Source: a virus (taxonomy: Duplodnaviria > Heunggongvirae > Uroviricota > Caudoviricetes). From it: DNA of 12,849 nucleotides. The position numbers were made by a program, and so were the translations under genes. The notes beneath the pieces were generated by a model that worked only from the letters and a program-made list of their open reading frames with translations, was not told where the DNA came from and searched no databases. Positions within the stretch are counted from its first letter, which is position 1; each line of letters starts with the position of its first letter. This document shows positions 1 through 12,849 of this stretch, one piece after another. The DNA lies in IMG/VR virus record IMGVR_UViG_3300049846_001486, positions 64,001 to 76,849 of that record, one strand, 5' to 3'.

Positions 1-42
1 TTGATTAAGTTTTGCGACTTCTTTGAAACGGTAATGAAATAA
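1..42 (+). CDS. 3' end of an upstream gene (LIKFCDFFETVMK*), product unknown
   Basis: Frame 1 is open from base 1 to TAA at 40-42. The stop overlaps the next ATG (TAATG), typical of translational coupling. Too short to assign a function. Confidence 0.6.
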   Translation: MIKFCDFFETVMK

Positions 43-773
43 TGTATCTAGATGATAAAAAATTAGTATTCTGCACTTTAGCGATTGGGGAACTTTACAG
101 ACATAGAGTTTCTACTCAAATACAAAGTATTTTAAAGTTCACTCATCACCCAGTATATGTAATAACAGATTCTCCGGAATGGTTTAGAAATTATTATGGA
201 GAAAGAGTTAAATTTATAGATATAGCTACTCTTAATTTTAAGCCTTGGAGCATAACAGACGCGGTAGGTAGATTCAATTACAATTTAAAACTTTGGCCTA
301 TAAAATGGGTCGCTGAAAATACAGATGCTCAAATGATAGTTTATATGGATGCTGATTCTTTCTTATTTGGTTGGGATAGATTGACCTATAGATATTTCTT
401 AGATGATAGTGGCAAGTCTGCTATGTTCGGTCGCTTCAGGTCTAATTTGAACAACAATGATTTTCCAGAAGTGAAGAAAAAGGCAGAAACCTTAGAGATA
501 AATATATCGGAAATGGATACGCAGCTTCCAATTGAAAACATAATGTTCTTTAGAAATTGCGGAAATGATTTAAAGGTATTTATTAATAAATGGGAAGAAT
601 TAGCCGATATAACTATTACTAAAGGTCAAACTTGTTTCTTTGAGGCTGTAGAATTGGCAATAGCTTTGAATTTGACAAACTTGAAATATGTCCATGTAGG
701 CAACGGCTTTCCATATTCGGATAATTTTAGAACTTTGCATAATGGAGAAATCCATGTGCCATTTGTAATTTAA
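42..773 (+). CDS. Putative GT-A fold glycosyltransferase (243 aa)
   Basis: N-terminal beta-strand LVFCTLAIG, then YVITDSPE, and a hydrophobic strand ending in a DxD motif (MIVYMDADSF). The layout resembles GT6/GT8-like enzymes; the family cannot be fixed by eye. Confidence 0.7.
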   Translation: MYLDDKKLVFCTLAIGELYRHRVSTQIQSILKFTHHPVYVITDSPEWFRNYYGERVKFIDIATLNFKPWSITDAVGRFNYNLKLWPIKWVAENTDAQMIVYMDADSFLFGWDRLTYRYFLDDSGKSAMFGRFRSNLNNNDFPEVKKKAETLEINISEMDTQLPIENIMFFRNCGNDLKVFINKWEELADITITKGQTCFFEAVELAIALNLTNLKYVHVGNGFPYSDNFRTLHNGEIHVPFVI

Positions 774-781
774 GGGTTTAT

Positions 782-2419
782 ATGAAGAAGAACATCACTT
801 TAGTAACTGGACTTTTTGACTTAGGTAGAGGGAATCTACAGGGAGGATTCAATAGGTCATTTGACCATTATATTGAATGCTTTAAGCGTTTACTTAATGT
901 TGATTTCCCTATGGTTATTTTCGTTCCGCCAGAATTAAATTCTGTAGTATGGGAAATAAGAAAGCCAGAAAATACCAGAATCATAAACAAGACCGTAGAA
1001 GAGATGAAAAATAACTTTCCGTTCTACGACCGTGTACAGAAAATCAGAACCAATCCAGAATGGATTAATCAGTCTGGTTGGATTGTAGATAGCACACAAG
1101 CTAAGTTGGATATGTATAATCCGATAGTCATGAGCAAACAGTTCATGTTGAATGACGCTGCTATCTTTAATTTCTTCGAAACTAAACACTTTATGTGGAT
1201 AGACGCTGGTATTTCTAATACGATAGGAGAGCCGTCTGGATATCTAAATGAAGAATTCGAAAGAAGAGTTACTCCATTATTGAACAAAATGTTGTACATT
1301 TGCTTCCCTTATGGTCCAGATGTTCCAGAAGTTCACGGATTCAACAAAGCCAAGATGAACGAATACGCTGGTGCTGAAACCGCATGGGTGGCAAGAGGCG
1401 GCTTCTTTGGTGGACCAAAAGAGACCATTCATCAAATAAACGATATTTACTACGGTCTACTTAATGATTCCACATACAACGGTTTGATGGGCACAGAAGA
1501 AAGCATCTTCACCATAATAACTTACAAACATAAAGATAAGTGTAATGTTAGAATGATTGAAGGCAACTGTCTTATTTTCGAGGACTTGAAAAAAGAAGAA
1601 TTGCCGCCAGCCTTTGATGAAAAAATCGCCGTATATGTTTTAACTTACAACATCCCTAAGCAATTTGAATTATGGGTCAAGTCTTTCAAAGAAACTTTTC
1701 CAAACGATTTCAACAACTGCACCAAGTATGTGATAAACAATTCAAATGACCCTAATGTTGATGCCGAATATAAAGCTCTATTTGCTCAATACGGTTTCAA
1801 AGAATACAAATTTGACAACATAGGAATTTGTGGCGGGCGTCAATTTGCTGCCGACCATTTCCATGATAGTCCACATAGCTATATGATTTTCTTTGAAGAC
1901 GATATGCTATTCCACAATAAAGAAGGTAAGTGTAAGTCTGGGTTTACCACCTATCATCCAGAGCTTTTCGATAAAGCTGTGGACATTCTTAACAATGAAA
2001 AGTTAGATTACCTTAAGCTTACTTTCAGCGAGTTCTACGGTGATAATCACGACAACTGGGCTTGGTATAATGTTCCGTTAGACAAGAAGGACATATATTT
2101 TCCACAACGCGCCGACCATGTTAGTCCGAAGAAAGTAAAGATTGAATATACCGGAACTCACAGAGGAATGCCATTTGCGGTAGGTGAATATTTCTATTGT
2201 AATTGGCCTCTTCTTTTCTCCAAAGAAGGAAATAAAAAAGTATTCATAGATACTAAATTTGAACACAAATACGAGCAGACTTGGATGAGTTTCGTTATGA
2301 CCTTAATGAGAGAAGGTAAAGTTAAGGCCGGATGTTTGTTGGCTTCTCCAATAAACCACCATAGAGAAATTTATTATGATGGAACGAAGAGAAGAGAAAA
2401 TGAGTTCTACAAAAATTAA
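782..2419 (+). CDS. Two-domain protein: N-terminal HtrL/YibB (WlaTC/HtrL)-like domain fused to a C-terminal GT2-like GT-A domain (545 aa)
   Basis: N-half: ITLVTGLFDLGR...RSFDHY, FMWIDAG, GGFFGG, TEESIFT, which are HtrL/YibB-like. C-half: IAVYVLTYN, YVINNS, NIGICGGRQ, YMIFFEDDML, which are GT2-like with an acidic metal motif. SD AAGGG at about 772-776. Confidence 0.75.
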   Translation: MKKNITLVTGLFDLGRGNLQGGFNRSFDHYIECFKRLLNVDFPMVIFVPPELNSVVWEIRKPENTRIINKTVEEMKNNFPFYDRVQKIRTNPEWINQSGWIVDSTQAKLDMYNPIVMSKQFMLNDAAIFNFFETKHFMWIDAGISNTIGEPSGYLNEEFERRVTPLLNKMLYICFPYGPDVPEVHGFNKAKMNEYAGAETAWVARGGFFGGPKETIHQINDIYYGLLNDSTYNGLMGTEESIFTIITYKHKDKCNVRMIEGNCLIFEDLKKEELPPAFDEKIAVYVLTYNIPKQFELWVKSFKETFPNDFNNCTKYVINNSNDPNVDAEYKALFAQYGFKEYKFDNIGICGGRQFAADHFHDSPHSYMIFFEDDMLFHNKEGKCKSGFTTYHPELFDKAVDILNNEKLDYLKLTFSEFYGDNHDNWAWYNVPLDKKDIYFPQRADHVSPKKVKIEYTGTHRGMPFAVGEYFYCNWPLLFSKEGNKKVFIDTKFEHKYEQTWMSFVMTLMREGKVKAGCLLASPINHHREIYYDGTKRRENEFYKN

Positions 2420-2981
2420 TGAACGATTTTTCTGTGTAAGTTTACCAAGAACAGGAACCAAAAGTCTATGTAAGATGTTTGGGATTCTTGGATTTAATTT
2501 TAAACACAATCCGGGGCCGAATGCCCGCCATTACATAAAGAATAAATCTATTCATATGTTTGCTGATACGCCAATATACAGCCCTTCTGTATTCTTGGAA
2601 TTAGCAAAAGAACCAATTAATAAATTCATATACATTAACCGACCTGTAAATGAATGGGTGGAATCCTTTGAATATGTTAGATTGGATAAAAGTTATGCGG
2701 ATTATTTAAGTAAACCGGATGATTTTTATGGAGAAAAGGGAGCCTTAGATAAAAAGTGTCTCTTAGAAATGTTTAATAATGTCACGGAATATACTACCGA
2801 GTTGGCCCGCGAATCTTACCACAGACACAGACAAGCTGTTATGACTTTAGATAGTAATAGGTTATTGATTTACAAATTCGAACAAGGATGGGAACCTTTA
2901 TGTGAATTTGTTGGCAAACCGGTACCGTCTGAACCAATCCCAAAAATAAACTCTAAAACTCTTTACGAGCCTATCGTTTAA
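2400..2981 (+). CDS. Sulfotransferase family protein (P-loop, Sulfotransfer_4-like)
   Basis: 5'-PSB-like loop FFCVSLPRTGTKSL..LGF and family C-terminal signature LLIYKFEQGWEPLCEFVGKPVPSEPIPKIN. Start at ATG 2400 is preferred over the track's 2376, but this is uncertain; it overlaps the previous gene by 20 nt. Confidence 0.8.
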   Translation: MSSTKINERFFCVSLPRTGTKSLCKMFGILGFNFKHNPGPNARHYIKNKSIHMFADTPIYSPSVFLELAKEPINKFIYINRPVNEWVESFEYVRLDKSYADYLSKPDDFYGEKGALDKKCLLEMFNNVTEYTTELARESYHRHRQAVMTLDSNRLLIYKFEQGWEPLCEFVGKPVPSEPIPKINSKTLYEPIV

Positions 2982-4159
2982 GGTAGGGTTATGTTGACAA
3001 TCGAATCGCTAGATGGTTCGATGCCTACGGTCAATGTATAAGTTATGCTCAAAATTCTATCGGAAGACTTTAAGATTGGGTCGAAAATGAAGTGCGTCAA
3101 TAAGCGTTCGCGCTCTAATGTAGCATCGTCATCGTTGGCAATACCAGCAACATCACCGACAGCGGATTGAACATTGACATTATCGCAGTTACCAGAAGTC
3201 AAAACATTGAATAATTCAACTGGGTCCGTATTGTTACAATTTAAAGTAACAGTAGAAGTGCTTCCTGTGGTCAAACTCTGGAAGGTCAAATATCCATAAG
3301 ATTCTGCGCCAACTATAGAAGAATATCCGCCACCAGAAGTATCTGTAATGAATACATATGCGAATGATGGAATAGAGTCTCCTGAAGTAATCCATGCTCC
3401 GGTGTTTATGCCTTCACAAATATCACCGTAAGTTATTTCGCCGCTAGGCCCGCTACCAGAAGCCGGAGTAGTAATTTCCGTAGAATGGTTTACTCCATCT
3501 ACATCTAAATTAATGCTGTATACAGTATTGACTGCTAATAAACTAATATCTTCAGAAGTCTTTGTGCCTAGGCTTACATTAGAATATCCGCTTGTAGCTT
3601 TTGCCTGTTTTCCAGAACTATATAATCCGATTTCATCAAATTGAAAATAATCGTCGGAAGGAGTTAAAGTATAAGCGGCTAATTGGCTGCTAGGTTCGTT
3701 CTCATTCAGGAACACGGTTATAACGACATTAGACTTCGTACCAACCTCTTCCGAGACCACCCCACCACCAGCAGGGTCATCCCCCGGAGAAGCGCCACCG
3801 CCGATTCTAACGCTGTTGTCGTCGGCGGAACCGAGGTCGCTGCCGAAATTAACATTGTCTTCATCTACGATTTCAGAATAAGTTTCATTATATAGACGGG
3901 ATTCCCAGCCATCGCCGTTGTTTCCATCATTAGGAGTTTTATAAACAATATTGTCTGCGGCATCTAAGAAAGTTCCGCCATTGCCGAAAGCCATTCTATT
4001 AATTATATGGTTGCCTTCGTTTGCCAAAGCTCTGGCAATGATTCTTGACATATTCTGTGTATGAATTGCATTGGTTTTATCAACCAAGACTTCTTTAGTC
4101 TTGTGGTCTCTAATTACGACTCGGCCTTTTACGCTTACTTTGAAATCTACTTTTGACAT
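2978..4159 (-). CDS. Putative virion structural protein (baseplate/tail-collar-associated type), 393 aa
   Basis: Motifs NAIH..NMSRIIARALANE, RMAFGNGGT, FDEIGLYS and LLTHFIFDPILKS..ITYTL, which I recall from large-phage structural proteins. SD AGGAG at 4168-4172 and TATAAATA at 4180-4187 (minus strand). The specific role is inference. Confidence 0.6.
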   Translation of the reverse strand: MSKVDFKVSVKGRVVIRDHKTKEVLVDKTNAIHTQNMSRIIARALANEGNHIINRMAFGNGGTFLDAADNIVYKTPNDGNNGDGWESRLYNETYSEIVDEDNVNFGSDLGSADDNSVRIGGGASPGDDPAGGGVVSEEVGTKSNVVITVFLNENEPSSQLAAYTLTPSDDYFQFDEIGLYSSGKQAKATSGYSNVSLGTKTSEDISLLAVNTVYSINLDVDGVNHSTEITTPASGSGPSGEITYGDICEGINTGAWITSGDSIPSFAYVFITDTSGGGYSSIVGAESYGYLTFQSLTTGSTSTVTLNCNNTDPVELFNVLTSGNCDNVNVQSAVGDVAGIANDDDATLERERLLTHFIFDPILKSSDRILSITYTLTVGIEPSSDSIVNITLP

Positions 4160-4179
4160 TATAAAGTCTCCTAACCTTA

Positions 4180-4187
4180 TATTTATA
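4180..4187 (-). promoter_or_regulatory. T4-type late promoter TATAAATA
   Basis: Exact match to the T4 gp55 late consensus, 20 nt upstream of the ATG at 4159. Confidence 0.75.
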
Positions 4188-4201
4188 CAAGTTACTGGAT
4201 G

Positions 4202-4230
4202 TTTATTTCTACAAATTTTTGTGCTATACT
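4202..4230 (+). promoter_or_regulatory. Sigma70-type promoter for thyA
   Basis: Extended -10 TGcTATACT (4222-4230), with TTTATT (4202-4207) as -35 at 17 bp spacing. Confidence 0.6.
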
Positions 4231-4263
4231 ATTAGTATATATCTGATAAAAATGAGGGAATTC

Positions 4264-5196
4264 ATGGAAAAATATATCAATTATGACTTAGAATACAATA
4301 GGCTAGCAGAAACCGTTATAAACACAGGTTTTTGGAAATATCATGAAAGGACCGGCAAAAAATGCCTAACTTCTTACGGTCATATGTTGAAATTTGACCT
4401 TTCTGATGGTAGATTCCCTGCCTTAACCACTAAAAAATTATTAATGAAACCTATGATTGCTGAACTACTAGGGTTTATTCGTGCCGTTGACAATGCGGCC
4501 ACTTTTAGAGAATTAGGTTGTAATTTCTGGGACGCCAACGCTAACCTAAGTAAACATTGGGTCGAGAACCCCAATAGAAAGGGAACGGATGATTTGGGTA
4601 GAATTTATGGAGTACAGGCCAGAGATTGGAAGCACTCTCCATCTATTAAACGCGAAGCCCTTGGTTATGAATGGGATGAAACTATTGAGTTTAAGCATTG
4701 CGACCAATTACAGATAGTGGTTGATAAATTAAAGCAAAATAAAGACGACCGCCGCCTTATTGTATCTCATTGGAACCCCGGTGAACTAAATCAAATGGCT
4801 TTACCTCCATGTCATTTATTATATCAGTTTGGTTTAAGAACTGATATCTATGGCACTTCATATTTGGATATGTGTCTGTATCAAAGGTCTGCTGATATTC
4901 CATTAGGCGTTCCAATGAATATAGCAAGTTATGCGTTGATGCTTCAATTAATATCTAAGATAACTGGACATAAGCCCGGAGTGTTTACCCATTTTATTTG
5001 GGATGCTCACATTTATGAAGACCAGTTAGATTTGTTGAAAGAACAGATTACTAGAACGCCATTTGATGCGCCAACACTAGTTATTGACACTAGAATAGAA
5101 TCATTGGAGGATTTAGAAACTTGGTGTACTACTGACAATTTCAAATTATTGAATTATCAGCATCACCCTCACATAAAGTTCCCGTTTTCTGAATAA
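4264..5196 (+). CDS. thyA: Thymidylate synthase (310 aa)
   Basis: FPALTTKK, ELLGFI, DLGRIYGVQ, RRLIVSHWNP, catalytic MALPPCH, LYQRSADIPLGVPMN, DAHIY. Start moved to ATG 4264 because SD GAGGG lies at 4254-4258; the track start at 4219 overlaps the promoter. Confidence 0.97.
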   Translation: MEKYINYDLEYNRLAETVINTGFWKYHERTGKKCLTSYGHMLKFDLSDGRFPALTTKKLLMKPMIAELLGFIRAVDNAATFRELGCNFWDANANLSKHWVENPNRKGTDDLGRIYGVQARDWKHSPSIKREALGYEWDETIEFKHCDQLQIVVDKLKQNKDDRRLIVSHWNPGELNQMALPPCHLLYQFGLRTDIYGTSYLDMCLYQRSADIPLGVPMNIASYALMLQLISKITGHKPGVFTHFIWDAHIYEDQLDLLKEQITRTPFDAPTLVIDTRIESLEDLETWCTTDNFKLLNYQHHPHIKFPFSE

Positions 5197-5976
5197 TTAA
5201 CCGGTTAGACCGACTACGGTAATGTACACCGGTCTTGCAGTAGGAATTATTACAGACGCCGTGTTAACATCGGTAAAAGTTACTGATGTTGGTGTTATGG
5301 TAGCAAATGTTTCTGCATCTATTACTGTGACTTGACAGGTTCTAGTATTCAAGTTATGAGTAACTAGATGATTGGTGGCGTAAGTCATATTGGTGAACTT
5401 GTACCACCACTTTCTATTGATGAAAGTTTCGGAATCTAAATCATAGAATAGCCCGTCGTTATCTGCTAAACCAGAGGTTTGAACATCTGACAACGATACC
5501 ATAGACACTTGTAAAGTGTTGTCAGGTAAAGTATTGATATCTCCAATAACATAATCACTTCCGTTGAAGAATAAAATATAACCCGGCGCTGGAGTATCAA
5601 CCTCAACATCTGATAAATCTGCTAAAGAAATTTCTCCCAATACAGGTATGGCCGCGTCTAACTGAGCTATAACATCAAATAGTGTGCTGTTGGAATCTAA
5701 ACCGCTGACATTAACTAGTGCATTGAAATCTGTTGGGTTGAAGGTGAAATCATTATTAATCCAATTTGTGCCTAGTGTGGTGATTAACGGGGAAGCTGTA
5801 TCAACGGCAACTTGAATAGTAACCCAAGTTACTCCATTGTTGTAATACATTAACCCATCTTTGTAAATTATAATACCGGCATCAGCAGCATCGAAGGCAG
5901 GTAAATCTTCAACGAGTTCCGGTCGCATATTAATAATGCTGGCATTTACTAATTCTATATTCGAAGCGTATTTCAT
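5197..5976 (-). CDS. Putative virion fibre/decoration protein (259 aa)
   Basis: Fibre-type N-terminus (GIIIY..MYYNNGVTW). Two L.DLSDV...G.L.(F/Y)(N/D) repeats at about aa 117-143 and 158-188. C-terminal VTHNLN...VTVID...SVTFTDVNT domain. SD AGGTGA and TAAATA upstream. Confidence 0.65.
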   Translation of the reverse strand: MKYASNIELVNASIINMRPELVEDLPAFDAADAGIIIYKDGLMYYNNGVTWVTIQVAVDTASPLITTLGTNWINNDFTFNPTDFNALVNVSGLDSNSTLFDVIAQLDAAIPVLGEISLADLSDVEVDTPAPGYILFFNGSDYVIGDINTLPDNTLQVSMVSLSDVQTSGLADNDGLFYDLDSETFINRKWWYKFTNMTYATNHLVTHNLNTRTCQVTVIDAETFATITPTSVTFTDVNTASVIIPTARPVYITVVGLTG

Positions 5977-5993
5977 TTTATCACCTTAATCAA

Positions 5994-6002
5994 TATTTAT
6001 TA
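5994..6002 (-). promoter_or_regulatory. Late promoter TAATAAATA overlapping the upstream stop codon
   Basis: TAAATA at 5994-5999, 17 nt before ATG 5976. It is directly preceded by the TAA stop (6000-6002) of the 885-aa gene. Confidence 0.65.
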
Positions 6003-8657
6003 CAAACAGACCTCTTCATGAATGAATGTTATTGCTACAGTCAATACTTTAGAATTTCCATTAGTATCACTTATTGTACATTTATATTGTCCAGCCCCGG
6101 ATATTCCCGAAGTTCTACCTATCGTTACAGTAGAAGTTGTGGCTCCTGAAGTTATGTTTCCTCCCCCCGATACTTTAGACCAAAGATAAGAATATGCAGG
6201 ATTTCCACCAGAAGGAACTGCTGTATATTGTACTTCCGTGGTACATTGTGTTTCGTATAATTGAGGTGCCGCACAATAACTACAATATAAACTATCGCTA
6301 TAAGTCGGAGAAGTTCCAGTCATTGCTTCGCCTCCAGTCAAAATGCCATCTAATATAGGTGGGGAACTGGAAGGAGTTACTGTAGGAGTTGGAGTATTGG
6401 TTCTAGTCGGTGTATTCGTTGGAGTAACTGTAGGTGTTGCCGAACTTGTTGGAGTTATGGTTGGAGTATTTGTAGGTGTCTTTGTAGGAGTTACCGTTGA
6501 AGTAGGCGTATTGGTTGGGGTTACCGTTGGGGTTACCGTTGGGGTTACAGTAGAAGTCTTTGTTGGAGTAGGCGTATTCGTTGGGGTTACTGTTGGGGTT
6601 ACAGTAGAAGTAGCCGTATTAGTCGGAGTTGCCGTATTCGTGGGTGTGACGGTATTCGTCGGAGTATTCGTAGGAGTTACGGTCTTAGTTGGAGTATTGG
6701 TTGGTGTCGCTGTAGGAGTCGGAGTTACGCACAAATCTTCATGTTCCCAATAAATGGTTACTGTAACTTCTTTGAGGTTAGAGTTTGTATCTGTTACCGT
6801 CAATTTGAATACACCATTAGTGCCTGACCCTGCTCCGGTTCTGGATATAGTAGCATTGGCCGTAGTAGACCCTGCTGTTATGTTGCCAGTACCAGAAACT
6901 TTAGTCCAAGAATAGGTATAGGCCGGATTTCCTCCTGAAACTGACGCCGTGTATATTTGTGTATTAGTACAAACATTTACTCCCTCTGCGGTGCAATACG
7001 AACAGAAAGGATAATCTTCGTAAGTGGTGGCACCTGTCTGCAAAAAGCTTCCGCTTGTAGTTGACGATAACGATATTGCCAAGACTGGAGGTGATGTTGA
7101 AGGAGTTACTGTTGGTGTTGGGGTATTCGTTGGCGTTCTAGTTATGGTAGGGGTAACCGTAGGAGTATTTGTCGGCGTCAAGGTATTCGTTGGGGTTACA
7201 GTTATTGTTCTCGTTGGAGTTACCGTATTCGTTGGGGTTACTGTTGGTGTTGGAGTTGCTGACGGTGGTAATCCCGGAGTATTCGTTGGCGTTACCGTAT
7301 TTGTTGGAGTTCTTGTAGTTGTGTTTGTCGGAGTAACCGTTGGTGTTGGTGTAGGGCTTGGACCCGGTGGATTACAATTTTCTTCATGATTGAAATAAAT
7401 TGTTATATCTTCAGTATCAACATTTGAGTTGGTATCTGATACGGTCAGTCTGAATGTTCCGGAATAGTTTCCTTGGAAACGATTATATCCTATTGTTACT
7501 ATTTGCGAGTTGGCACCAGCTAAAATAGCACCATCGCCGGATAATTTAGTCCAAGCAAATGAATACGGCGGATTTCCGCCAGTTGCGTTTCCTGTAAAGT
7601 TTCCAGAAGATTGACAGATGTTTATGCTTTGTTCAGGGCATACGAAACAATAAAGATTTGTATCTCCGGATATTGACCCCTGTAAAGGAGGTGGCGAACT
7701 AGAAGGAGTGACTGTAGGAGTTCTAGTATTCGTCGGCGTCATAGTTGGTGTCACGGTGCTAGTAGGGGTCAAGGTTGGAGTATTCGTTGGGGTTCTTGTT
7801 GCTGTAGGAGTTACGGTTAAAGTAGTAGAAGCTGTAGGTGTATTAGTCGGTGTAACGGTATTAGTTGGTGTTACTGTAACGGTTGGTGTAACGGTATTCG
7901 TCGGGGTGCGTGTTGATGTTGGAGTATTCGTTGGGGTAACTGTCGGAGTAATAGTAACAGTATTAGTCGGTGTAACAGTATTAGTTGGAGTACGGGTTGA
8001 TGTTGGGGTATTCGTTGGAGTAACTGTTACTGTAGGAGTAACTGTACTAGTGGGTGTTATGGTATTGGTTGGAGTTACAGTTGGAGTTATAGTTGGAGTT
8101 ACCGTAACTCCCGGAGTTGGAGTATTCGTTGGGGTTCTTGTATTGGTTGGGGTTACTGACGGAGTAACGGTATTAGTTGGAGTATTTGTCGGCGTAATAG
8201 TTAAAGTTGGAGTTACAGTTGGTGTTCTTGTATTAGTTGGAGTTACCGTATTCGTTGGAGTTACAGTAGGACTTGCTTGAGCAGTTTTTGTAGGAGTTGC
8301 TGTATTCGTTGGCGTCGGAGTGGTTGATAATGTTGGGGTTGGAGTTGGGGTTACAGAAATATCATTTGCACAACTTTCTGTATCTGTGAAAATCATTATA
8401 TTGGCAAATCCCTGTGTAGGGCTATTGAAAATAATTTCTATGTTATTTTCATCTAATATAGAAATTTCAGGAATAATTAATTCATTATTCACGAATACAT
8501 TGACATTGACATTGATTGAATTTTTATTATGACCAATGGACCAAACTTCTAAAGGTGTGGCTTGGACATATTGAAAAGCACATGCTATTAAAGGATTTTC
8601 ATCCTTTAATATAAGCTTTCCAGTTTTAAAATCCCTATATAATACCTTGTAAGTCAT
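6000..8657 (-). CDS. Mucin-like Thr/Pro-rich fibre protein with three Ig/PKD-like domains (885 aa)
   Basis: N-terminal beta-domain (aa 1-91), then three (T/S-X)n stalks, each followed by a domain with consensus CxxC..C..GGNP.Y.(Y/F).W.K.SG.G.I...G.(F/Y)..T..DTN...HE..C. SD AAGG and TAAATA upstream. Confidence 0.8.
6363..6728 (-). repeat. Thr/Pro dipeptide-register stalk 3 of the 885-aa protein (about 122 aa)
   Basis: TPTN/TVTP-type 12-18 bp imperfect tandem units. Confidence 0.9.
7092..7370 (-). repeat. Thr/Pro stalk 2 of the 885-aa protein (about 93 aa)
   Basis: Same unit types, plus PPGPSP and GLPP interruptions. Confidence 0.9.
7695..8357 (-). repeat. Thr/Pro stalk 1 of the 885-aa protein (about 221 aa)
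   Basis: Imperfect tandem [10 protein letters not shown] units. Confidence 0.9.
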
Positions 8658-8674
8658 TAATTATAACCTTGTTT

Positions 8675-8683
8675 TATTTATTA
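8675..8683 (-). promoter_or_regulatory. Late promoter TAATAAATA overlapping the upstream stop codon
   Basis: TAAATA at 8675-8680, 17 nt before ATG 8657. It is directly preceded by the TAA stop (8681-8683) of the 811-aa gene. Confidence 0.65.
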
Positions 8684-11116
8684 ACAATCGTCAGTATGTT
8701 CAAATGTTACTGCATCTTGAGAATTTGCCGAAGCGGATAAATTGTCTGTAACTGTACATTTATAAGTTCCGGCGGCAGTAGAGGCTCCAGCCGTTCTTTC
8801 AACAGTAATAGTTGCGCTTCCATTACCGGAAACTATACTTCCCGCCCCACTAACTTTGGTCCACGAATATGAATATGGAGGCGTTCCGCCGCTTGGAGTG
8901 GCCGTGAAAGTAGTGCTTGAGGTGCATGAAAAACCACAGGCGGCGTTACAACTTGCAAATCCTGCATCATTATTAACTACAGAAACTGATAATGGAACAG
9001 CCGATGGTGTTACAGTACGAGTCGGGGTATTCGTCGGAGTTACCGTATTAGTCGGAGTAACCGTATTCGTAGGTGTTACCGTATTCGTCGGAGTATTCGT
9101 TGGTGTGACGGTATATGTCGGAGTGACCGTATTAGTTGGGGTAACCGTATTCGTCGGTGTATTAGTCGGGGTTACCGTTGGGGTTACGGTAGAGGTAACG
9201 GTATTCGTCGGAGTATTCGTTGGAGTATTAGTCGGAGTTACAGTAGAAGTTGCCGTATTAGTCGGAGTTACAGTATTAGTCGGAGTTTTTGTAGGCGTAT
9301 TCGTTGGAGTTACAGTATTCGTCGGGGTCGTAGTAGGGGTGTAAGTCGGTGTGACTGTGCTTGTTGGTGTTACGGTCGGTGTAACTGTCGGTGTGACCGT
9401 ATTCGTCGGGGTATTCGTCGGGGTTACAGTCGGTGTTACTGTAGTTGTCGGTGTAACTGATGCTGTTGGAGTAAATGTTGGAGTAACTGTGAATGTTGGT
9501 GTAACTGTATTAGTAGGTGTTATTGTGTTTGTTGGAGTAGTCGTAGGAGTATTAGTTGGCGTTACAGTATTAGTTGGTGTTACCGTATTAGTTGGTGTTA
9601 CCGTATTAGTTGGTGTATTAGTTGGGGTTACAGAAGCAGTAGGGGTAAAGGTCGGCGTTACCGTATTAGTTGGTGTTACCGTATTAGTTGGTGTATTAGT
9701 TGGGGTTACAGAAGCCGTAGGGGTAAAGGTCGGCGTTACCGTATTAGTTGGAGTAACCGTATTCGTTGGGGTTACAGTCGGAGTATTAGTTGGAGTAACC
9801 GTATTCGTTGGGGTTACAGTCGGAGTATTAGTTGGTGTAACTGTATTAGTCGGAGTCGTTGTAGGTGTATTTGTTGGAGTGTTCGTCGGAGTTATTGTCA
9901 CAGTTGGAGTATTAGTTGGTGTTATCGTATTAGTAGGTGTAACGGTATTCGTCGGAGTATTAGTAGGTGTAACGGTATTCGTCGGAGTATTCGTCGGGGT
10001 TACCGTATTCGTAGGGGTTACCGTATTCGTAGGTGTGACGGTATTTGTTGGTGTAACGGTATTCGTCGGGGTTGTAGTAGGGGTATTCGTTGGGGTAACC
10101 GTATTCGTCGGGGTTCTCGTAGTTGTCGGAGTAACAGTATTCGTAGGAGTTGCAGTATTCGTTGCCGTTGGAGTATTAGTCGGAGTTTCTGTTGGTGTTA
10201 CAGTAGGTGTTGGTGTTACAGTAGGTGTTACTGTATTCGTCGGTGTTACTGTATTCGTTGGCGTTGGTGTACTTGTGTTTGTAGGAGTTACAGTTGGAGT
10301 TATAGTTGGGGTAACCGTGTTAGTTGGAGTTACTGTTTTTGTTGGTGTTACTGTAGCGGTCGGCGTTACTGTATTAGTAGGAGTTACTGTAGCAGTTGCT
10401 GTTCTAGTTGGAGTATTTGTAGCTGTAGGAGTATTAGTAGGTGTAGCCGTATTCGTTGGTGTCGGAGTTGGTGTAGCGCCACTAGTAGGAGTTGTAGATG
10501 GCGTTACGGTATTCGTAGGAGTTACTGTAGCAGTTGCCGTTCTAGTTGGAGTATTCGTAGGAGTTACTGTATTCGTTGGGGTTACAGTAGGTGTATTCGT
10601 AGGAGTTACTGTGCTGGTAGGCGTAACCGTAGGAGAAGCCGTCTTTGTTGGAGTACGAGTAAAGGTCGGCGTTACCGTATTAGTTGGTGTTACCGTATTA
10701 GTTGGTGTATTGCTTATTGTAGGAGTATTGCTCGGAGTAACAGTTATAGTTGGTGTTGGCGTAACCGTAGGAGAAGCGGTAACTAATGGAACCTCCACGG
10801 GAGCATCTATGAAAAAGAATATAGATGCTACGCCTTTAATTTCTGAAGAAAATTCAACAGAAATTGAACTGCCACTTAAGAAAGTTACAGATTGTGGTAC
10901 TATTTTAGAATAAGTATCGTCTGCTTCTTTCTGGAAAAATGTTATTACTAAATTGGTAGTATTGAATGGGTGTTTTACATTCCAAGTTTTGGCAGCAACA
11001 TTCTGTTCAAACAAATATCCAGAGAACGGGCGTTCTATACCGTCATTGTCCAGTACCAATTCGCCGGTTTCTTTGTTTATTATCAATCGTTGGAGGTCTG
11101 AGAAATTGTTTGACAT
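8681..11116 (-). CDS. Mucin-like Thr/Pro-rich fibre protein with one terminal Ig/PKD-like domain (811 aa)
   Basis: N-terminal beta-domain (aa 1-104), about 593 aa (T/S-X)n stalk, and a C-terminal domain with [15 protein letters not shown]...GTYKCTVTD...HTDDC. SD GGAAGG at 11121-11126. Confidence 0.8.
9002..10780 (-). repeat. About 1.78 kb Thr/Pro repeat stalk with recent exact duplications
   Basis: Dominant TVTPTN (18 bp) unit. 78-bp tandem (9583-9738, 1 mismatch), perfect 42-bp tandem (9741-9824), and an identical 53-bp block at 9645-9697 and 10659-10711. Confidence 0.92.
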
Positions 11117-11128
11117 TTGACCTTCCGA

Positions 11129-12076
11129 TTAAGCGATTATCATAAGTTCTTTGATATCTAAGAATATGGTATTAGTATCAACGACAAATCCTATTCTCTG
11201 CATGGATTTTCTAGTAGGAACTGTAGTGGTAACTTCTCCGCTTTTACCCACCCATACTGGTGTGTTTGGGTCTACTGAGAAATTCCAATTTGGATTGGTT
11301 ATGAATCCAGATGATGCAAACTTTTTAATTTGTCCTTTTGTGATAGCTTCAGTAGCCAATCCTACACACGGATAATCCGAATCTTCACTTGAGGCTAATC
11401 CTATTTGCTTTATACCTTTCCACGATACACAATAAAATTTAGGAATTGGCTCAACAGCTTTACCATCAACTTGTACAGATTCCATTTTGAAAGGGTTTGT
11501 AGCATTGTTTTGAGTGTTTAAAATAGTCTCCGTCGTAACCAAAGCTTTTGGCCCTATCGAAGATTTTCTATAGATTGGGAATCCTAAATCATCGAACAGA
11601 ATAAATCCTGAATTATTGTTACTGTTCAATCCTGTTTGCGACCCTACATTATATTCATTCAAGATTCCACCAAATAACAATTCACCGAGGAATACTCTTA
11701 GTTTTATATCCCACGACACACCGCTGTAAACTTTCATGGCATTTACTGATGTATCAAAAAAATGAGTATCTGGCAATGGAGCGCCCGGAAGTGTATGTCC
11801 ATAACTTGGTTGAATTTGAGTATAACCGAAAGTTCGAGCGCCAGTCTCTATATTAATGTCCACATAAAAGTAATAATTATTCGTATTGACGAAAGAACCG
11901 GCCCAAGCCGCATATATGGTTTCATTCTCTGACAAGAGATAATTATTGTCGCCGTGAGCAAAGGTTATAATTAAATTTTCTGGGAAAACTAGTAAGTCAA
12001 CTTGGTCGCCAACAACATCCAACATGGCTGAACCTGTAGGCTTTTTTACTATACCTTGTCTGAAAGTTAAAAACAT
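11129..12076 (-). CDS. Putative virion structural protein with a C-terminal DUF2190/capsid-decoration-like domain (315 aa)
   Basis: N-terminus MFLTFRQGIV, which I recall from large-phage structural proteins. C-terminal pattern A.E.I..F..V...GLAS...VGLATE.I..G.....G.ITN..W.F...VWVGKSGEVTT..P...QRIG. SD TAAGGA and TAAATA upstream. Domain call is by eye only. Confidence 0.55.
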   Translation of the reverse strand: MFLTFRQGIVKKPTGSAMLDVVGDQVDLLVFPENLIITFAHGDNNYLLSENETIYAAWAGSFVNTNNYYFYVDINIETGARTFGYTQIQPSYGHTLPGAPLPDTHFFDTSVNAMKVYSGVSWDIKLRVFLGELLFGGILNEYNVGSQTGLNSNNNSGFILFDDLGFPIYRKSSIGPKALVTTETILNTQNNATNPFKMESVQVDGKAVEPIPKFYCVSWKGIKQIGLASSEDSDYPCVGLATEAITKGQIKKFASSGFITNPNWNFSVDPNTPVWVGKSGEVTTTVPTRKSMQRIGFVVDTNTIFLDIKELMIIA

Positions 12077-12100
12077 ATTGCTAATCCTTAATTATTCTTA

Positions 12101-12106
12101 TATTTA
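12101..12106 (-). promoter_or_regulatory. Late promoter core TAAATA
   Basis: CCTAAATA, 24 nt before ATG 12076. Confidence 0.55.
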
Positions 12107-12135
12107 GGGTTTTGGACAGAAATATAAGTTATAAA

Positions 12136-12426
12136 TTATTCGAAAAATATCAAAGAAGCTTTACCCGCTGTAGGCTCGGTAAAGGTGACCACTATGGTAT
12201 TATTATCATTGATGACCAGACTTTCAGGGATTATTAGTTCAGAATCTTCATTTGTTATTTCACAAAGAAACTTGTTAGAATTCTTCATATGTTGTATCGT
12301 CCATATTTCTGTAGGAGTCTCAACATTAACTACTATGTTTGATATTCCACCTTGGAATGCCGATTCATCAAAAACCGCCATTTCACCAGTCGTTTCGTCT
12401 ACATAAATTTTAGAATATTTTCCCAT
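12136..12426 (-). CDS. Small protein (96 aa): stand-alone copy of the N-terminal domain of the mucin-like fibres
   Basis: KIYVDETTGEM...WTIQHMKNS...ELIIPE....DNNTI..TF.EPT.GKA aligns with RDFKTGKL...WSIGHNKNS...ELIIPE...DENNI..IF..PTQGFA of the 885-aa protein. Confidence 0.75.
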   Translation of the reverse strand: MGKYSKIYVDETTGEMAVFDESAFQGGISNIVVNVETPTEIWTIQHMKNSNKFLCEITNEDSELIIPESLVINDNNTIVVTFTEPTAGKASLIFFE

Positions 12427-12450: not shown

Positions 12451-12456
12451 TATTTA
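12451..12456 (-). promoter_or_regulatory. Late promoter core TAAATA
   Basis: CATAAATA, 24 nt before ATG 12426. Confidence 0.55.
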
Positions 12457-12501: not shown

Positions 12502-12849
12502 ATGGAAACGCTGAAAAAATTAACCGAAGAATTTAGAGTATTCGACTTAGAAACTGAAGAAGAAGTTGATTTACTTGATGTTCTCGATTCTTTAATGGAC
12601 GATAATTCCGAGGAAAATTCCCCGGAAGGCGACTATTTTAAATACTATGATATGGACACAGCCGATTCCGGATTGCCTACAGATGATTTTCCACCACCGG
12701 AATCTTATGAAATGGACCAACCGGTTGGAGATGATTATAATTTTAATGATGAATTACCTTCTGATGATGCGCCTGAATATGGTGAACCGGAAGATGACGA
12801 AGCTTTGGATATAGAAGACAAATCCGAAGAAGCGAAATTAGCCAATCAA
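12502..12849 (+). CDS. 5' part of a very acidic hypothetical protein (not in the ORF track; runs off the window)
   Basis: Open from ATG 12502 to the end: METLKKLTEEFRVFDLETEEEVDLLDVLDSLMDDNSEENSPEGDYFKYYDMDTADSGLPTDDFPPPESYEMDQPVGDDYNFNDELPSDDAPEYGEPEDDEALDIEDKSEEAKLANQ. Has an SD and a late motif. Confidence 0.8.
   Translation, partial: METLKKLTEEFRVFDLETEEEVDLLDVLDSLMDDNSEENSPEGDYFKYYDMDTADSGLPTDDFPPPESYEMDQPVGDDYNFNDELPSDDAPEYGEPEDDEALDIEDKSEEAKLANQ

What the first reader, a model, noticed from the sequence alone, without database searches (positions are those of the whole stretch)
1..12426. Candidate phage 'glycocalyx' system: sugar/sulfate-transfer operon near late-expressed mucin-like virion fibres
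Seen: three predicted glycosyltransferase domains and a sulfotransferase lie about 3 kb from two genes in a TAAATA-marked late cluster that encode about 1,030 residues of (Thr/Ser-X)n stalk capped by Ig-like domains, roughly 500 potential O-linked sites. Established: streptococcal serine-rich repeat adhesins (Fap1/GspB/PsrP) have (Ser-X)n stalks O-glycosylated in the cytoplasm by adjacently encoded GTs. Some mycobacteriophages glycosylate virion proteins with their own GTs, and mimivirus fibrils are glycosylated by virus-encoded enzymes. Inference: this phage may build glycosylated, possibly sulfated, bottle-brush fibres on the virion, for adhesion, protease or antibody shielding, or host-glycan mimicry. 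I am not aware of a described phage system combining these parts, but I cannot search to confirm novelty.
Basis: partly seen in the sequence, partly recalled or inferred. Interest (0 to 1): 0.85.

Follow-up and report, generated by a model that had tools for sequence, protein, structure and literature searches.

The report
Jumbo-phage mucin-type glycosylation module
An uncultured giant phage encodes very long threonine-rich stalk proteins next to a conserved set of soluble sugar-, carbamoyl- and sulfate-transfer enzymes, led by a relative of the enzyme that starts mucin-type sugar coating in protists. Its particles therefore probably carry sugar-coated fibres, though no experiment has shown this.

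Summary
The window is the end of a 76.8-kb fragment of an XacN1-like jumbo phage. It holds an HtrL+GT-A bifunctional glycosyltransferase, a GT8-like GT-A protein and a PAPS-type sulfotransferase. Beside them are late-motif genes for two proteins with about 1,100 residues of (Thr-X)n stalk and four PKD-like domains.

The key enzyme lies just outside the window. The operon starts with a PF11397/GT60-like polypeptide GlcNAc-transferase (E 1e-73, DxH motif invariant) and a NodU-type carbamoyltransferase.

- Thr-Pro tracts occur in all GT60-positive relatives with more than 15 kb of sequence, and in 0 of 6 GT60-negative jumbo relatives.
- 10 of 25 viral contigs picked only for Thr-X tracts carry the enzyme.
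- In a second phage lineage, Thr/Pro-rich genes sit directly beside the GT60 gene.
- Bacterial GT60-like genes also neighbour Thr/Pro-repeat proteins.
- XacN1 virions were already reported to stain as glycoproteins (2018).

Best reading (about 0.55): cytoplasmic mucin-type O-glycosylation of the Thr stalks of virion proteins. Carbamoylation is widespread in the clade; sulfation is only an accessory.

All evidence is comparative. The main rivals are another virion target (the neighbouring 393-aa tail protein) or a host glycan. Earlier notes of this scan on the adjacent DNA proposed the same link. This is a new variant of known phage virion glycosylation.

The parts
42..773 (+). 243-aa GT-A fold, GT8-like glycosyltransferase. 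It is the fourth gene of an operon that starts 4.6 kb upstream of the window with a GT60-like gene (contig 59368-60747), a carbamoyltransferase (60751-63120) and an HtrL-like gene (63074-64042).
   Evidence: No Pfam hit. Atlas structure matches to nucleotide-diphospho-sugar transferase/GT8 clusters at TM 0.69-0.77. Homologs at 30-35% identity sit in the same operon position in XacN1, L016 and L017. Upstream genes.
782..2419 (+). 545-aa bifunctional glycosyltransferase: an HtrL_YibB domain plus a GT2-like GT-A domain.
   Evidence: Pfam PF09612, E 1.9e-17. Model pLDDT 86 with two GT-A domains. Foldseek hits: E. coli HtrL (E 4e-17), LARGE1, K4CP, LH3, Mimivirus R699, PgtA. It is 43-62% identical in all 11 relatives aligned, with invariant WxD and EDD motifs.
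2376..2981 (+). 201-aa PAPS-type sulfotransferase; an accessory member of the operon that overlaps the end of the previous gene.
   Evidence: Pfam PF17784, E 7.5e-27. PDB sulfotransferase hits. Homologs found only in L014 (two copies) and L153.
2978..4159 (-). 393-aa virion (probably tail) protein that converges on the operon. It is the conserved neighbour of the operon in the clade and an alternative glycosylation target.
   Evidence: phrog_11259, E 2e-112. 57% identical to XacN1 ORF329. The N-terminal 185 aa match roughly 200-aa 'structural proteins' of CBB and 7t3. Residues 186-340 (pLDDT above 90) match tail-sheath outer domains and FliD, Z 9.3.
4180..4187 (-). TATAAATA, a T4-type late-promoter-like motif 26 nt upstream of the 393-aa gene.
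4219..5196 (+). Thymidylate synthase, in conserved synteny between the 393-aa gene and the late block.
   Evidence: PF00303, E 8e-84. TIGR03284 above its cut-off. Best PDB hits are true thymidylate synthases, and the catalytic motifs are kept.
5197..5976 (-). 259-aa late protein ending in the shared small beta-domain. TAAATA at 5994-5999.
   Evidence: PHROG 'virion structural protein', 'tail fiber' and 'head decoration' matches to residues 117-257. Alignment A2. Motif.
6000..8657 (-). 885-aa stalk protein: an N-terminal small beta-domain followed by three units of (Thr-X)n stalk plus PKD-like domain. TAAATA at 8675-8680.
8681..11116 (-). 811-aa stalk protein: an N-terminal small beta-domain, a 611-aa (Thr-X)n stalk and a PKD/SprB-like cap.
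   Evidence: L014 has a homologous N-domain plus stalk with a different tip, directly next to its operon.
11129..12076 (-). 315-aa late protein. In relatives its homolog is fused to a Thr/Pro stalk. TAAATA at 12101-12106.
   Evidence: The L153 995-aa ORF is 40% identical over 317 aa and then Thr/Pro-rich; L157 is similar. No hit in isolate phages.
12136..12426 (-). 96-aa stand-alone copy of the shared small beta-domain. TAAATA at 12451-12456.

Best explanation
The phage carries a cytoplasmic, mucin-type O-glycosylation module whose main acceptors are the (Thr-X)n stalks of its late structural proteins.

Proposed steps:
1. A soluble GT60-like enzyme transfers a HexNAc, probably GlcNAc from UDP-GlcNAc, to stalk threonines before assembly.
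2. The two-domain HtrL/GT2 enzyme extends it, together with the HtrL-like and GT8-like enzymes.
3. The NodU-type enzyme O-carbamoylates a sugar.
4. In this phage a PAPS sulfotransferase adds sulfate.

The result would be stiff, hydrated, protease-resistant bottle-brush tethers. They would hold PKD/Ig-like or other binding tips away from the particle, both on separate fibre proteins and on the giant baseplate-region protein.

Shown: the genes, domains, motifs, synteny and co-occurrence. Inferred: acceptor identity, sugar identity, order of steps, virion location and function.
For: 1. The operon head is PF11397, E 1e-73, covering positions 1-351 of 352. ASYRD, DxH and HxY-T motifs are invariant across subfamilies down to 25% identity. 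All characterised members of this family (CAZy GT60) glycosylate polypeptides: Thr of Thr-rich mucin repeats in T. cruzi and Dictyostelium, and Hyp of cytosolic Skp1 (PMC8724618, PMC3769586).
2. All six enzymes lack TM segments, and there is no flippase, polymerase or priming transferase.
3. The core operon is 50-65% identical across phages whose GC content and hosts differ widely. That fits a phage-intrinsic substrate.
4. XacN1, with the same core operon, has at least 2 PAS-positive virion proteins (PMC5852040).
5. Co-occurrence. The TPTxTxTPT pattern gives 19, 17 and 1 hits in the GT60-positive genomes XacN1, Xoo-sp13 and RAS14. It gives 0 in six GT60-negative jumbo relatives of 344-469 kb. 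It is present in 4 of 5 related contigs.
6. Reverse test. 10 of 25 IMG/VR contigs chosen only for Thr-X tracts carry PF11397. tblastn finds the enzyme in only 4 of 50,697 isolate phage records.
7. Those ten contigs belong to other GT60 subfamilies. Nine of their genes are of similar size (418-447 aa), and the five I aligned are 51-54% identical to ours. The tenth is an 820-aa fusion at about 26% identity. No homolog of our PolB was detected in G006 or G021. Thr/Pro-rich ORFs directly flank the cluster there: L143, L144, and 70 of 72 close relatives within 1 kb upstream.
8. In our clade a Thr/Pro-rich late ORF lies 0-9 kb from the operon in ours, L014, L153, L156, L157 and L160.
9. Bacterial GT60-like genes neighbour Thr/Pro-repeat proteins: 29 of 80 loci against 11 of 80 in a reversed-sequence control.
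Against: - There is no direct evidence of modification, and no virion proteomics for this phage.
- Pro/Thr linkers often work unglycosylated.
- Four complete phage genomes with Thr-X tracts (G010, G020, G022, G024) and the near-complete G029 lack PF11397.
- Co-occurrence is confounded by kinship: it amounts to a few clades, not many independent events.
- Adjacency is modest overall: 12 of 18 loci have a Thr/Pro-rich ORF within 10 kb, against roughly 40% expected by my rough estimate. L016, L155, L158, L140 and L141 have none in reach.
- RAS14 has only one pattern hit.
- In the XacN1 clade the invariant neighbour is the 393-aa protein, not a stalk gene.
- XacN1's glycoprotein bands are unidentified.
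- No prokaryotic or phage PF11397 member has a known substrate.
- E. coli HtrL sits in an LPS-core gene cluster.
- The operon's promoter and timing are unknown.
Confidence: 0.55

Rival explanations
1. The operon glycosylates virion proteins, but not the stalks. The target would be the conserved 393-aa tail-like neighbour, whose exposed Ser/Thr/Gly-rich inserted domain is specific to this clade, or capsid or tail subunits as in mycobacteriophage Che8. The Thr-X stalks would be plain extended linkers.
For: - The 393-aa gene converges on or lies within about 5 kb of the operon in the XacN1-like members where both genes lie within the fetched stretch: XacN1, Xoo-sp13, ours, L015, L016, L155-L158 and L160. 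In L153 only the distal operon genes are within reach, and in L014 a Thr/Pro-rich ORF takes its place.
- In XacN1 a further GT gene (ORF328) directly precedes it.
- The roughly 200-aa insert (residues 186-340, sheath-outer/FliD-like, Z 9.3) is absent from the GT60-negative Rak2-like homologs.
- XacN1 shows only about two PAS bands.
- The glycan shield of Che8 sits on major capsid proteins (PMC11256854).
Against: - Lineage-2 phages have the GT60+HtrL/GT2 pair but no BLAST-detectable 393-aa homolog near it. Thr/Pro-rich genes flank it there instead.
- The bacterial neighbours are also Thr/Pro-repeat proteins.
- Known acceptors of GT60 enzymes are Thr-rich repeats or Hyp in disordered segments, not folded domains.
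- Both targets could be true at once.
Confidence: 0.2
2. The operon remodels a host envelope glycan (LPS core, O-antigen or capsule) during infection, for example to block superinfection. This has been proposed for glycosyltransferase clusters of jumbo cyanophages.
For: - HtrL/YibB is named from an E. coli LPS-core-region gene.
- NodU-type enzymes and sulfotransferases act on free or lipid-linked oligosaccharides.
- The published view of jumbo-phage GT clusters is one of outer-polysaccharide modification (PMC7824862).
- The operon lacks the late motif and follows replication genes.
- Accessory gene content varies between relatives.
Against: - The core enzymes are 50-65% identical across phages of very different hosts and GC content, which is unexpected for host-specific glycans.
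- There is no membrane, flippase, polymerase or priming enzyme.
- The head enzyme belongs to a family known only for polypeptide acceptors.
- It associates strongly with Thr-X tracts.
- XacN1 virions contain glycoproteins.
Confidence: 0.12
3. The enzymes hypermodify phage DNA: glycosylated, carbamoylated hydroxymethyl-pyrimidines made with the adjacent ThyA-family enzyme.
For: - A ThyA-family gene is syntenic with the operon region across the clade and is divergent (25-30% identity) in some relatives.
- Jumbo-like phage YerA41 has a roughly 1-kDa thymidine modification attributed to its GT-motif genes (PMC9023294).
Against: - The window's ThyA is closest to true thymidylate synthases (3v8h, E 5e-71). 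It keeps the Cys, Asn and His-Tyr motifs and passes TIGR03284.
- No kinase, pyrophosphorylase or TET/JBP partner was seen.
- GT60 enzymes are not known to act on DNA.
- This reading does not explain the association with Thr-X tracts.
Confidence: 0.05

Closest known systems
Xanthomonas phage XacN1 ORF334-ORF330 cluster and its PAS-positive virion proteins (Yoshikawa et al. 2018, PMC5852040)
   Same: Same phage clade and the same core operon in the same order: GT60-like 62%, carbamoyltransferase 51%, HtrL-like 30%, GT8-like 30% and HtrL/GT2 60% identical. The 393-aa homolog is adjacent. XacN1 also has Thr/Pro tracts in several large proteins.
   Different: XacN1 has no sulfotransferase, and its tracts are about 20-270 aa against 611-969 aa here. 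Its authors annotated only two GTs. They did not identify the glycoproteins or the enzyme family, and did not link them to Thr/Pro tracts.
Mycobacteriophage virion glycosylation (Che8 and relatives; Freeman et al. 2023, cited in PMC11256854 and PMC12582341)
   Same: Phage-encoded glycosyltransferases modify the phage's own virion proteins in the cytoplasm and form a glycan coat.
   Different: There the acceptors are major capsid (and, from my memory, tail tube) subunits, not long repeat stalks. The enzymes are unrelated as far as I can tell (not tested here). The hosts are actinobacteria and the phages are small siphoviruses.
CAZy GT60 polypeptide alpha-GlcNAc-transferases: T. cruzi TcOGNT2, Dictyostelium Gnt2 (mucin-type initiation) and Gnt1 (cytosolic Skp1-Hyp)
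   Same: Same Pfam family (PF11397), with a DxH motif. Acceptors rich in Thr/Pro. For Skp1, soluble cytosolic enzymes act stepwise and are followed by a two-domain GT (PgtA) and a GT8-type enzyme. This parallels GT60-like + HtrL/GT2 + GT8-like here.
   Different: All characterised members are eukaryotic. The phage enzyme has an extra C-terminal region of about 110 aa. The 545-aa protein resembles PgtA no more than it resembles other tandem GT-A enzymes (rank 26). Carbamoylation and sulfation have no counterpart there.
Serine-rich repeat adhesins of Gram-positive cocci (GspB, Fap1, PsrP) with GtfA/B
   Same: Long dipeptide-periodic hydroxy-amino-acid stalks are glycosylated in the cytoplasm by adjacently encoded enzymes and carry binding domains.
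   Different: Those stalks are (Ser-X)n rather than (Thr-X)n, and the initiating GtfA/B enzymes are GT-B fold. They use SecA2/Y2 accessory export and LPXTG anchoring. None of these parts is present here.
Mimivirus fibril glycosylation and chlorovirus capsid glycosylation by virus-encoded enzymes
   Same: Virus-encoded, host-independent glycosylation of surface structures. HtrL-like and tandem GT-A proteins are common in giant viruses (Mimivirus R699 is a fold hit).
   Different: These are eukaryotic viruses with different acceptors and glycans. No Thr-X stalks are known there.
Pro/Thr-rich interdomain linkers of bacterial glycoside hydrolases (such as Cellulomonas fimi cellulases)
   Same: Extended (Pro-Thr)n spacers between domains, some of them O-glycosylated.
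   Different: They are tens of residues long, not 600-970, and have no dedicated adjacent GT operon.

Membership tests
PF11397 'GlcNAc' / CAZy GT60 polypeptide HexNAc-transferase (operon head, contig 59368-60747, upstream of the window) | Full-length match to the family profile above the curated cut-off | tested here: met
   E 1e-73, 249 bits against a cut-off of 21, profile positions 1-351 of 352
PF11397 'GlcNAc' / CAZy GT60 polypeptide HexNAc-transferase (operon head, contig 59368-60747, upstream of the window) | GT-A metal-binding DxH motif and a downstream His conserved | tested here: met
   Q-x-D-(S/A)-H-x-RF and H-x-Y-T are invariant in 13 sequences down to 25% identity
PF11397 'GlcNAc' / CAZy GT60 polypeptide HexNAc-transferase (operon head, contig 59368-60747, upstream of the window) | Transfers GlcNAc from UDP-GlcNAc to a polypeptide Thr/Ser/Hyp | not testable with these tools
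   Needs an enzyme assay. Only genomic association with Thr-X tracts is available.
HtrL_YibB (PF09612) glycosyltransferase-like family | Profile match above the cut-off and fold match to E. coli HtrL | tested here: met
   E 1.9e-17, 64 bits against a cut-off of 24. Foldseek to P25666: E 3.8e-17, TM by hit 0.73. The NCBIfam equivalog cut-off is not reached (77 against 265 bits), so it belongs to the family but is not a YibB ortholog.
Sulfotransfer_4 (PF17784) PAPS-dependent sulfotransferases | Profile match above the cut-off and a 5'-phosphosulfate-binding loop | tested here: met
   E 7.5e-27, 95 bits against a cut-off of 22.8. A PRTGTKS loop lies near the N-terminus. The acceptor is unknown.
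NodU/CmcH O-carbamoyltransferases (contig 60751-63120) | Both Carbam_trans_N and Carbam_trans_C domains present | tested here: met
   E 5e-28 and 6e-56. The NodU equivalog cut-off is not reached (182 against 1000 bits). An extra 260-aa C-terminal part has no assignment.
PKD / K319L-like Ig-fold domains (stalk caps) | Profile match | tested here: met
   The whole 885-aa protein scores 42.7 bits against a cut-off of 27. The single caps score 34.5, 26.7, 26.2 and 22 bits, so three are just under the cut-off.
Serine-rich repeat adhesin (SRRP) glycosylation/export system | (Ser-X)n repeats, GtfA/GtfB GT-B initiating pair, accessory SecA2/SecY2, cell-wall anchor | tested here: not met
   The repeats are (Thr-X)n. 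No such Pfam families occur in the operon or window. The initiating enzyme is GT-A/GT60-like.
T4-type late promoter (TATAAATA) | Exact octamer roughly 10-30 nt upstream of late gene starts | tested here: inconclusive
   There is one exact octamer, before the 393-aa gene. A TAAATA core lies at -23 to -30 before 4 more late genes and before 23 of 61 ORFs of the contig, but before no operon gene. No transcript data.
Thymidylate synthase (ThyA) | Profile above the cut-off, with catalytic Cys, Asn177-equivalent and His-Tyr motifs | tested here: met

The most novel reading that the evidence does not exclude
Two large groups of uncultured jumbo phages, and many bacteria, may share a prokaryotic mucin-type O-glycosylation system. 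A soluble GT60-like enzyme would start HexNAc chains on (Thr-X)n/(Thr-Pro)n repeat proteins. A tandem HtrL/GT2 enzyme would extend them, and lineage-specific carbamoyl, sulfate or methyl groups would decorate them. In phages this would give the virion kilodalton-scale 'phage mucin' tethers with swappable binding tips. The family may also be the prokaryotic root of eukaryotic GT60/GT27 mucin initiation and of the cytosolic Skp1 pathway.
Probability: 0.35. Interest if true: 0.85.

Novelty: new variant of a known kind. Interest (0 to 1): 0.7.

Why it matters
Virion glycosylation by phage-encoded enzymes is known from only a few cases, and there it changes antibody recognition. Here the candidate system is abundant: more than 7,000 close homologs of the lead enzyme in metagenomes, and at least 375 loci of a second lineage in IMG/VR. 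It has a clear, testable acceptor motif and a culturable relative (XacN1).

If true, it would:
- explain the function of the huge Thr/Pro tracts common in jumbo-phage structural proteins;
- add sulfated and carbamoylated glycans to phage surface chemistry, which bears on adhesion to mucus or biofilm matrices, protease resistance and immune shielding in phage therapy;
- give a prokaryotic context for the origin of mucin-type O-glycosylation enzymes.

It would also supply soluble enzymes for dense O-glycosylation of designed Thr-X polymers.

Tried and rejected
- Megablast of the window against isolate phages: no match.
- phmmer of the GT60-like protein against PDB sequences: no hit, so no solved relative by sequence.
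- tblastn of the 315-aa and 259-aa late proteins against 50,697 phage records: no match. Their virion role could not be anchored to proteomics of isolates.
- XacN1 supplement: the identities of the MS-detected and PAS-positive proteins are in figures only and are not readable here.
- Idea that the 545-aa enzyme is a specific PgtA (Skp1 pathway) homolog: PgtA is only rank 26 among tandem GT-A hits. I dropped this as a membership claim and keep it only as an analogy. The literature search for a GT74-HtrL link found nothing.
- First distance estimate between operon and stalks, from the strict DNA pattern, suggested 17-27 kb. ORF-level scans showed nearer Thr/Pro-rich genes that the pattern had missed, so that estimate was discarded.
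- Planned permutation test of GT60-to-tract distances: the pattern output was truncated, so only tallies are given.
- 393-aa fold: the N-terminal half was modelled poorly (pLDDT below 50), so only the inserted domain was interpreted.
- Sigma-70 and terminator scans gave no usable promoter for the operon.
- PolB search in lineage-2 genomes found nothing. The tool warns that an empty answer proves little, so I use it only as 'no homolog detected'.
- Freeman et al. 2023 is not held in the library.

Full report
**What the window is.** The window is the last 12.8 kb of a 76.8-kb IMG/VR fragment, about 22% complete. The phage is related to the Xanthomonas/Stenotrophomonas jumbo phages XacN1, Xoo-sp13, CM1 and RAS14, and more distantly to Rak2-like phages. 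No isolate genome matches at the DNA level.

**Gene map.**
- On the + strand lies the tail of an enzyme operon: 42-773 (243 aa), 782-2419 (545 aa) and 2376-2981 (201 aa).
- A 393-aa gene (2978-4159, - strand) converges on it.
- A thymidylate synthase follows (4219-5196, + strand).
- Then comes a minus-strand block: 259 aa (5197-5976), 885 aa (6000-8657), 811 aa (8681-11116), 315 aa (11129-12076) and 96 aa (12136-12426).

**The enzymes.**
- The 545-aa protein has an HtrL_YibB domain (E 1.9e-17).
  - Its AlphaFold model (pLDDT 86) is two tandem GT-A domains. The N-domain matches E. coli HtrL (E 4e-17).
  - The whole protein matches tandem GT-A enzymes: LARGE1, chondroitin polymerase K4CP, LH3, Mimivirus R699 and Dictyostelium PgtA.
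  - WxD and EDD motifs are invariant in 12 homologs.
- The 243-aa protein has no Pfam hit. The Atlas model of this exact sequence matches nucleotide-diphospho-sugar transferase/GT8 clusters (TM 0.69-0.77; a lead, not proof).
- The 201-aa protein is a Sulfotransfer_4 member (E 7.5e-27) with a PAPS-loop-like motif.
- The operon starts upstream of the window:
  - a 459-aa PF11397 'GlcNAc' protein (E 1e-73, full profile length);
  - a 789-aa NodU/CmcH-type carbamoyltransferase;
  - a 322-aa HtrL-like protein (Atlas lead).
- None of the six enzymes has a transmembrane segment.

**The stalk proteins.**
- The 885-aa protein has three Thr-X segments (247, 119 and 139 aa), each followed by a Cys-containing PKD/K319L-like domain.
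- The 811-aa protein has one 611-aa segment and one PKD-like cap.
- Thr holds every second position in 76-97% of the phase, and the four main segments contain 553 Ser/Thr.
- All four Thr codons are used and the DNA repeats are imperfect. The pattern is therefore selected at the protein level and is not a microsatellite.
- The long V/G-rich ORFs on the + strand are mirror images of these codons.
- Both proteins start with a small beta-domain of about 95 aa. The same domain also forms the 96-aa protein and the C-terminus of the 259-aa protein. It gives weak PHROG matches to 'virion structural protein', 'tail fiber protein' and 'head decoration' families.
- A third stalk lies outside the window. 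The 4,457-aa protein next to the baseplate wedge genes (a homolog of XacN1 ORF325) ends in 969 aa of the same repeat plus the same cap. XacN1's ORF325 has only two short PT linkers there.

**Late motif.** TAAATA (once TATAAATA) lies 23-30 nt upstream of five of the six minus-strand genes and of 23 of the 61 ORFs of the contig. It precedes none of the six operon genes. The operon follows a terminator-like hairpin and has no recognisable promoter. The placement fits a T4-like late class for the stalk genes. No transcript data exist.

**What the lead enzyme family does.** CAZy GT60, the family behind PF11397, comprises polypeptide alpha-GlcNAc-transferases. In T. cruzi and Dictyostelium they start mucin-type O-glycans on Thr-rich repeats. 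The family also includes the soluble cytosolic enzyme that glycosylates Skp1 hydroxyproline, where a two-domain GT and a GT8-type GT then act stepwise (PMC8724618, PMC3769586). In the phage proteins the ASYRD, DxH and HxY-T motifs are invariant down to 25% identity. No phage or bacterial member has a known substrate.

**Conservation of the operon.**
- GT60-like plus HtrL/GT2 is the constant pair.
- The carbamoyltransferase is present in most members of the XacN1-like clade.
- The HtrL-like, GT8-like and sulfotransferase genes come and go. The sulfotransferase is found only here, in L014 (twice) and in L153.
- The lead enzyme has more than 7,000 homologs, the best at about 60-70% identity, on contigs up to 390 kb.
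- The core is 50-65% identical between this 37%-GC phage and the Xanthomonas phages. Such conservation across hosts argues for a phage-intrinsic substrate.

**Co-occurrence tests.**
- (a) Complete isolate genomes that share the 393-aa N-domain. The DNA pattern for TPTxTxTPTxTxT gives 19 hits in XacN1, 17 in Xoo-sp13 and 1 in RAS14, all GT60-positive. It gives 0 in RsoM2USA, Phosso, Vibrio phage 2.275.O, XbC2, CBB and EJP2, all GT60-negative. The reversed pattern gives 0 everywhere. Four of five related IMG/VR contigs also have it; the exception is a 14-kb fragment.
- (b) The reverse direction. I scanned IMG/VR for any (Thr-X)14 tract, kept 25 contigs with real Thr/Pro-type tracts and searched them for PF11397. 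Ten have it, although most are 10-60% fragments. By tblastn the enzyme occurs in only 4 of 50,697 isolate phage records.
- (c) Those ten belong to other GT60 subfamilies.
  - Nine of the genes are of similar size (418-447 aa), and the five I aligned are 51-54% identical to ours. The tenth (G021) is an 820-aa fusion at about 26% identity.
  - In the loci I fetched there is no carbamoyltransferase, and four of the five from the main subfamily keep a full-length HtrL/GT2 homolog.
  - The neighbouring genes do not match our contig, and no homolog of our DNA polymerase was detected in two of the genomes, G006 and G021.
- Exceptions exist. Four complete genomes and one near-complete genome with tracts of about 40-400 aa lack the enzyme.

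**Adjacency.**
- In lineage 2, Thr/Pro-rich multi-domain ORFs flank the cluster on the same strand in L143 and L144.
- In 78 close relatives of L144, 70 of 72 loci have such an ORF within 1 kb upstream and none downstream. These are kin, so this counts as one conserved arrangement.
- In the XacN1-like clade the usual order is: Thr/Pro-rich or 315-aa-like late genes, then ThyA, then the 393-aa gene, then the operon. A Thr/Pro-rich ORF lies 4.5-9 kb from the operon in L153, L156, L157 and L160, about 3 kb away here, and directly at the operon's end in L014. That ORF has the same N-domain and stalk but a different tip. In L153 and L157 the 315-aa domain is fused to a stalk.
- Overall, 12 of 18 loci have a Thr/Pro-rich ORF within 10 kb. 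My rough chance estimate is about 40%, so adjacency alone is modest evidence.

**Bacteria.** GT60-like genes are also common in bacterial chromosomes (271 stretches, 35-59% identity, many phyla). 29 of 80 loci have a Thr/Pro/Ser-rich open frame within 8 kb, against 11 of 80 when the same loci are read backwards. In Gemmatimonadota, Vicinamibacterales, Acidimicrobiaceae, Alphaproteobacteria and Verrucomicrobia the direct neighbour is a small protein with a twin-arginine-like signal and a 75-200-aa (Thr/Ser-Pro)n tail. This is an independent hint that the family's acceptors are Thr/Pro repeats. High-GC frames inflate false positives, so it needs proper gene calling.

**Prior knowledge.** The XacN1 paper reported at least two Schiff-positive virion proteins and suggested that the phage's own glycosyltransferases make them (PMC5852040). 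It did not identify the proteins or the enzyme family. Mycobacteriophage Che8 and relatives carry glycans on capsid proteins (PMC11256854, PMC12582341). I found no paper linking a GT60-type enzyme to Thr-rich phage proteins. Earlier notes of this scan on the adjacent window of the same contig had already proposed the stalk-GT60 link. I tested their claims independently.

**The 393-aa neighbour.** It is 50-58% identical across the clade. Its first 185 residues match roughly 200-aa 'structural proteins' of Rak2-like phages. Its confidently modelled inserted domain (residues 186-340) resembles the protruding domains of tail sheath proteins and FliD, at Z 9.3, rmsd 2.9 Å and 121 residues aligned. 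It is the operon's most constant neighbour in this clade, so it is a serious alternative or additional target. Lineage 2 and the bacterial loci lack it near the enzyme.

**Minor rivals.**
- A host-glycan role, as proposed for GT clusters of jumbo cyanophages (PMC7824862), fits the HtrL name and the variable accessories. It does not fit the cross-host conservation, the lack of any membrane-associated step, or the Thr-X association.
- DNA hypermodification is unlikely. The ThyA here is a typical thymidylate synthase and nothing else points to DNA.

**Verdict.**
There is a good comparative case that a GT60-led, soluble, multi-enzyme module glycosylates Thr-X stalks of late, probably virion, proteins. 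Sulfation is a lineage-specific extra.
- My probability is about 0.75 that the operon glycosylates virion proteins at all, and about 0.55 that the stalks are the main acceptor.
- It is a new variant of a known kind (phage-encoded virion glycosylation). It is abundant in nature and directly testable in XacN1.

Noticed in passing
L262, L267, L276, L300, L307, L308, L311, L313, L243 (bacterial genome contigs), next to the GT60-like match: In several bacterial phyla the GT60-like gene directly neighbours a small protein with an RRxF twin-arginine-like signal followed by a 75-200-aa (Thr/Ser-Pro)n tail. Overall, 29 of 80 loci have a Thr/Pro-rich frame within 8 kb, against 11 of 80 in reversed-sequence controls.
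   Followed up: partly
L162-L241 (IMG/VR, relatives of G019); L143, L144: A second, very abundant jumbo-phage lineage (at least 375 stretches, genomes of about 320 kb, GC 32-36%) has a block of Thr/Pro-linked, Cys-rich multi-domain ORFs immediately upstream of its GT60-like gene on the same strand (70 of 72 loci). There is no carbamoyltransferase. In L143 a trypsin-like protease gene sits between the two.
   Followed up: partly
window 2978-4159 (-): The 393-aa protein equals a roughly 200-aa Rak2-type 'structural protein' plus an inserted domain (residues 186-340) that resembles tail-sheath protruding domains and flagellar cap FliD D2-D3 (Z 9.3). The insert occurs only in the clade that has the glyco-operon.
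   Followed up: partly
window 12136-12426, 8372-8657, 10799-11116, 5197-5440 (all -): One small beta-domain of about 95 aa occurs four times: alone (96 aa), at the N-terminus of both stalk proteins and at the C-terminus of the 259-aa protein. It recurs at the N-terminus of the L014 742-aa stalk protein. It is possibly a shared docking module.
   Followed up: partly
L014:18119-20347 (-) and 20377-21117 (-): The stalk protein of this relative ends not in a PKD domain but in about 8 repeats of a motif like RFPFSSPFTTxTDVGDL. The next ORF is made of the same repeats. The tips on the stalks are therefore swappable.
   Followed up: no
L155:5058-6230, L156:5131-6126, L157:5744-6604: The ThyA-family gene keeps its position beside the 393-aa gene across the clade, but in some relatives it is only 25-30% identical to the window's enzyme. 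Those copies may not be plain thymidylate synthases.
   Followed up: no
window 6343-6753, 7024-7389, 7708-8280, 8856-9344, 9351-10913 (+): Long V/G-rich open frames, up to 520 aa, lie opposite the stalk genes. They are mirror-frame artefacts of (ACN NNN)n coding repeats and could be miscalled as genes.
   Followed up: yes
window 12502-12849 (+), runs off the end: The start of a very acidic (Asp/Glu-rich) protein diverges from the late block. It has its own TAAATA 25 nt upstream.
   Followed up: no
contig 60751-63120 (L003:16751-19120), residues about 530-789: The carbamoyltransferase carries an extra C-terminal region of about 260 aa with no Pfam match. It is conserved in length in XacN1 and its relatives.
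   Followed up: no
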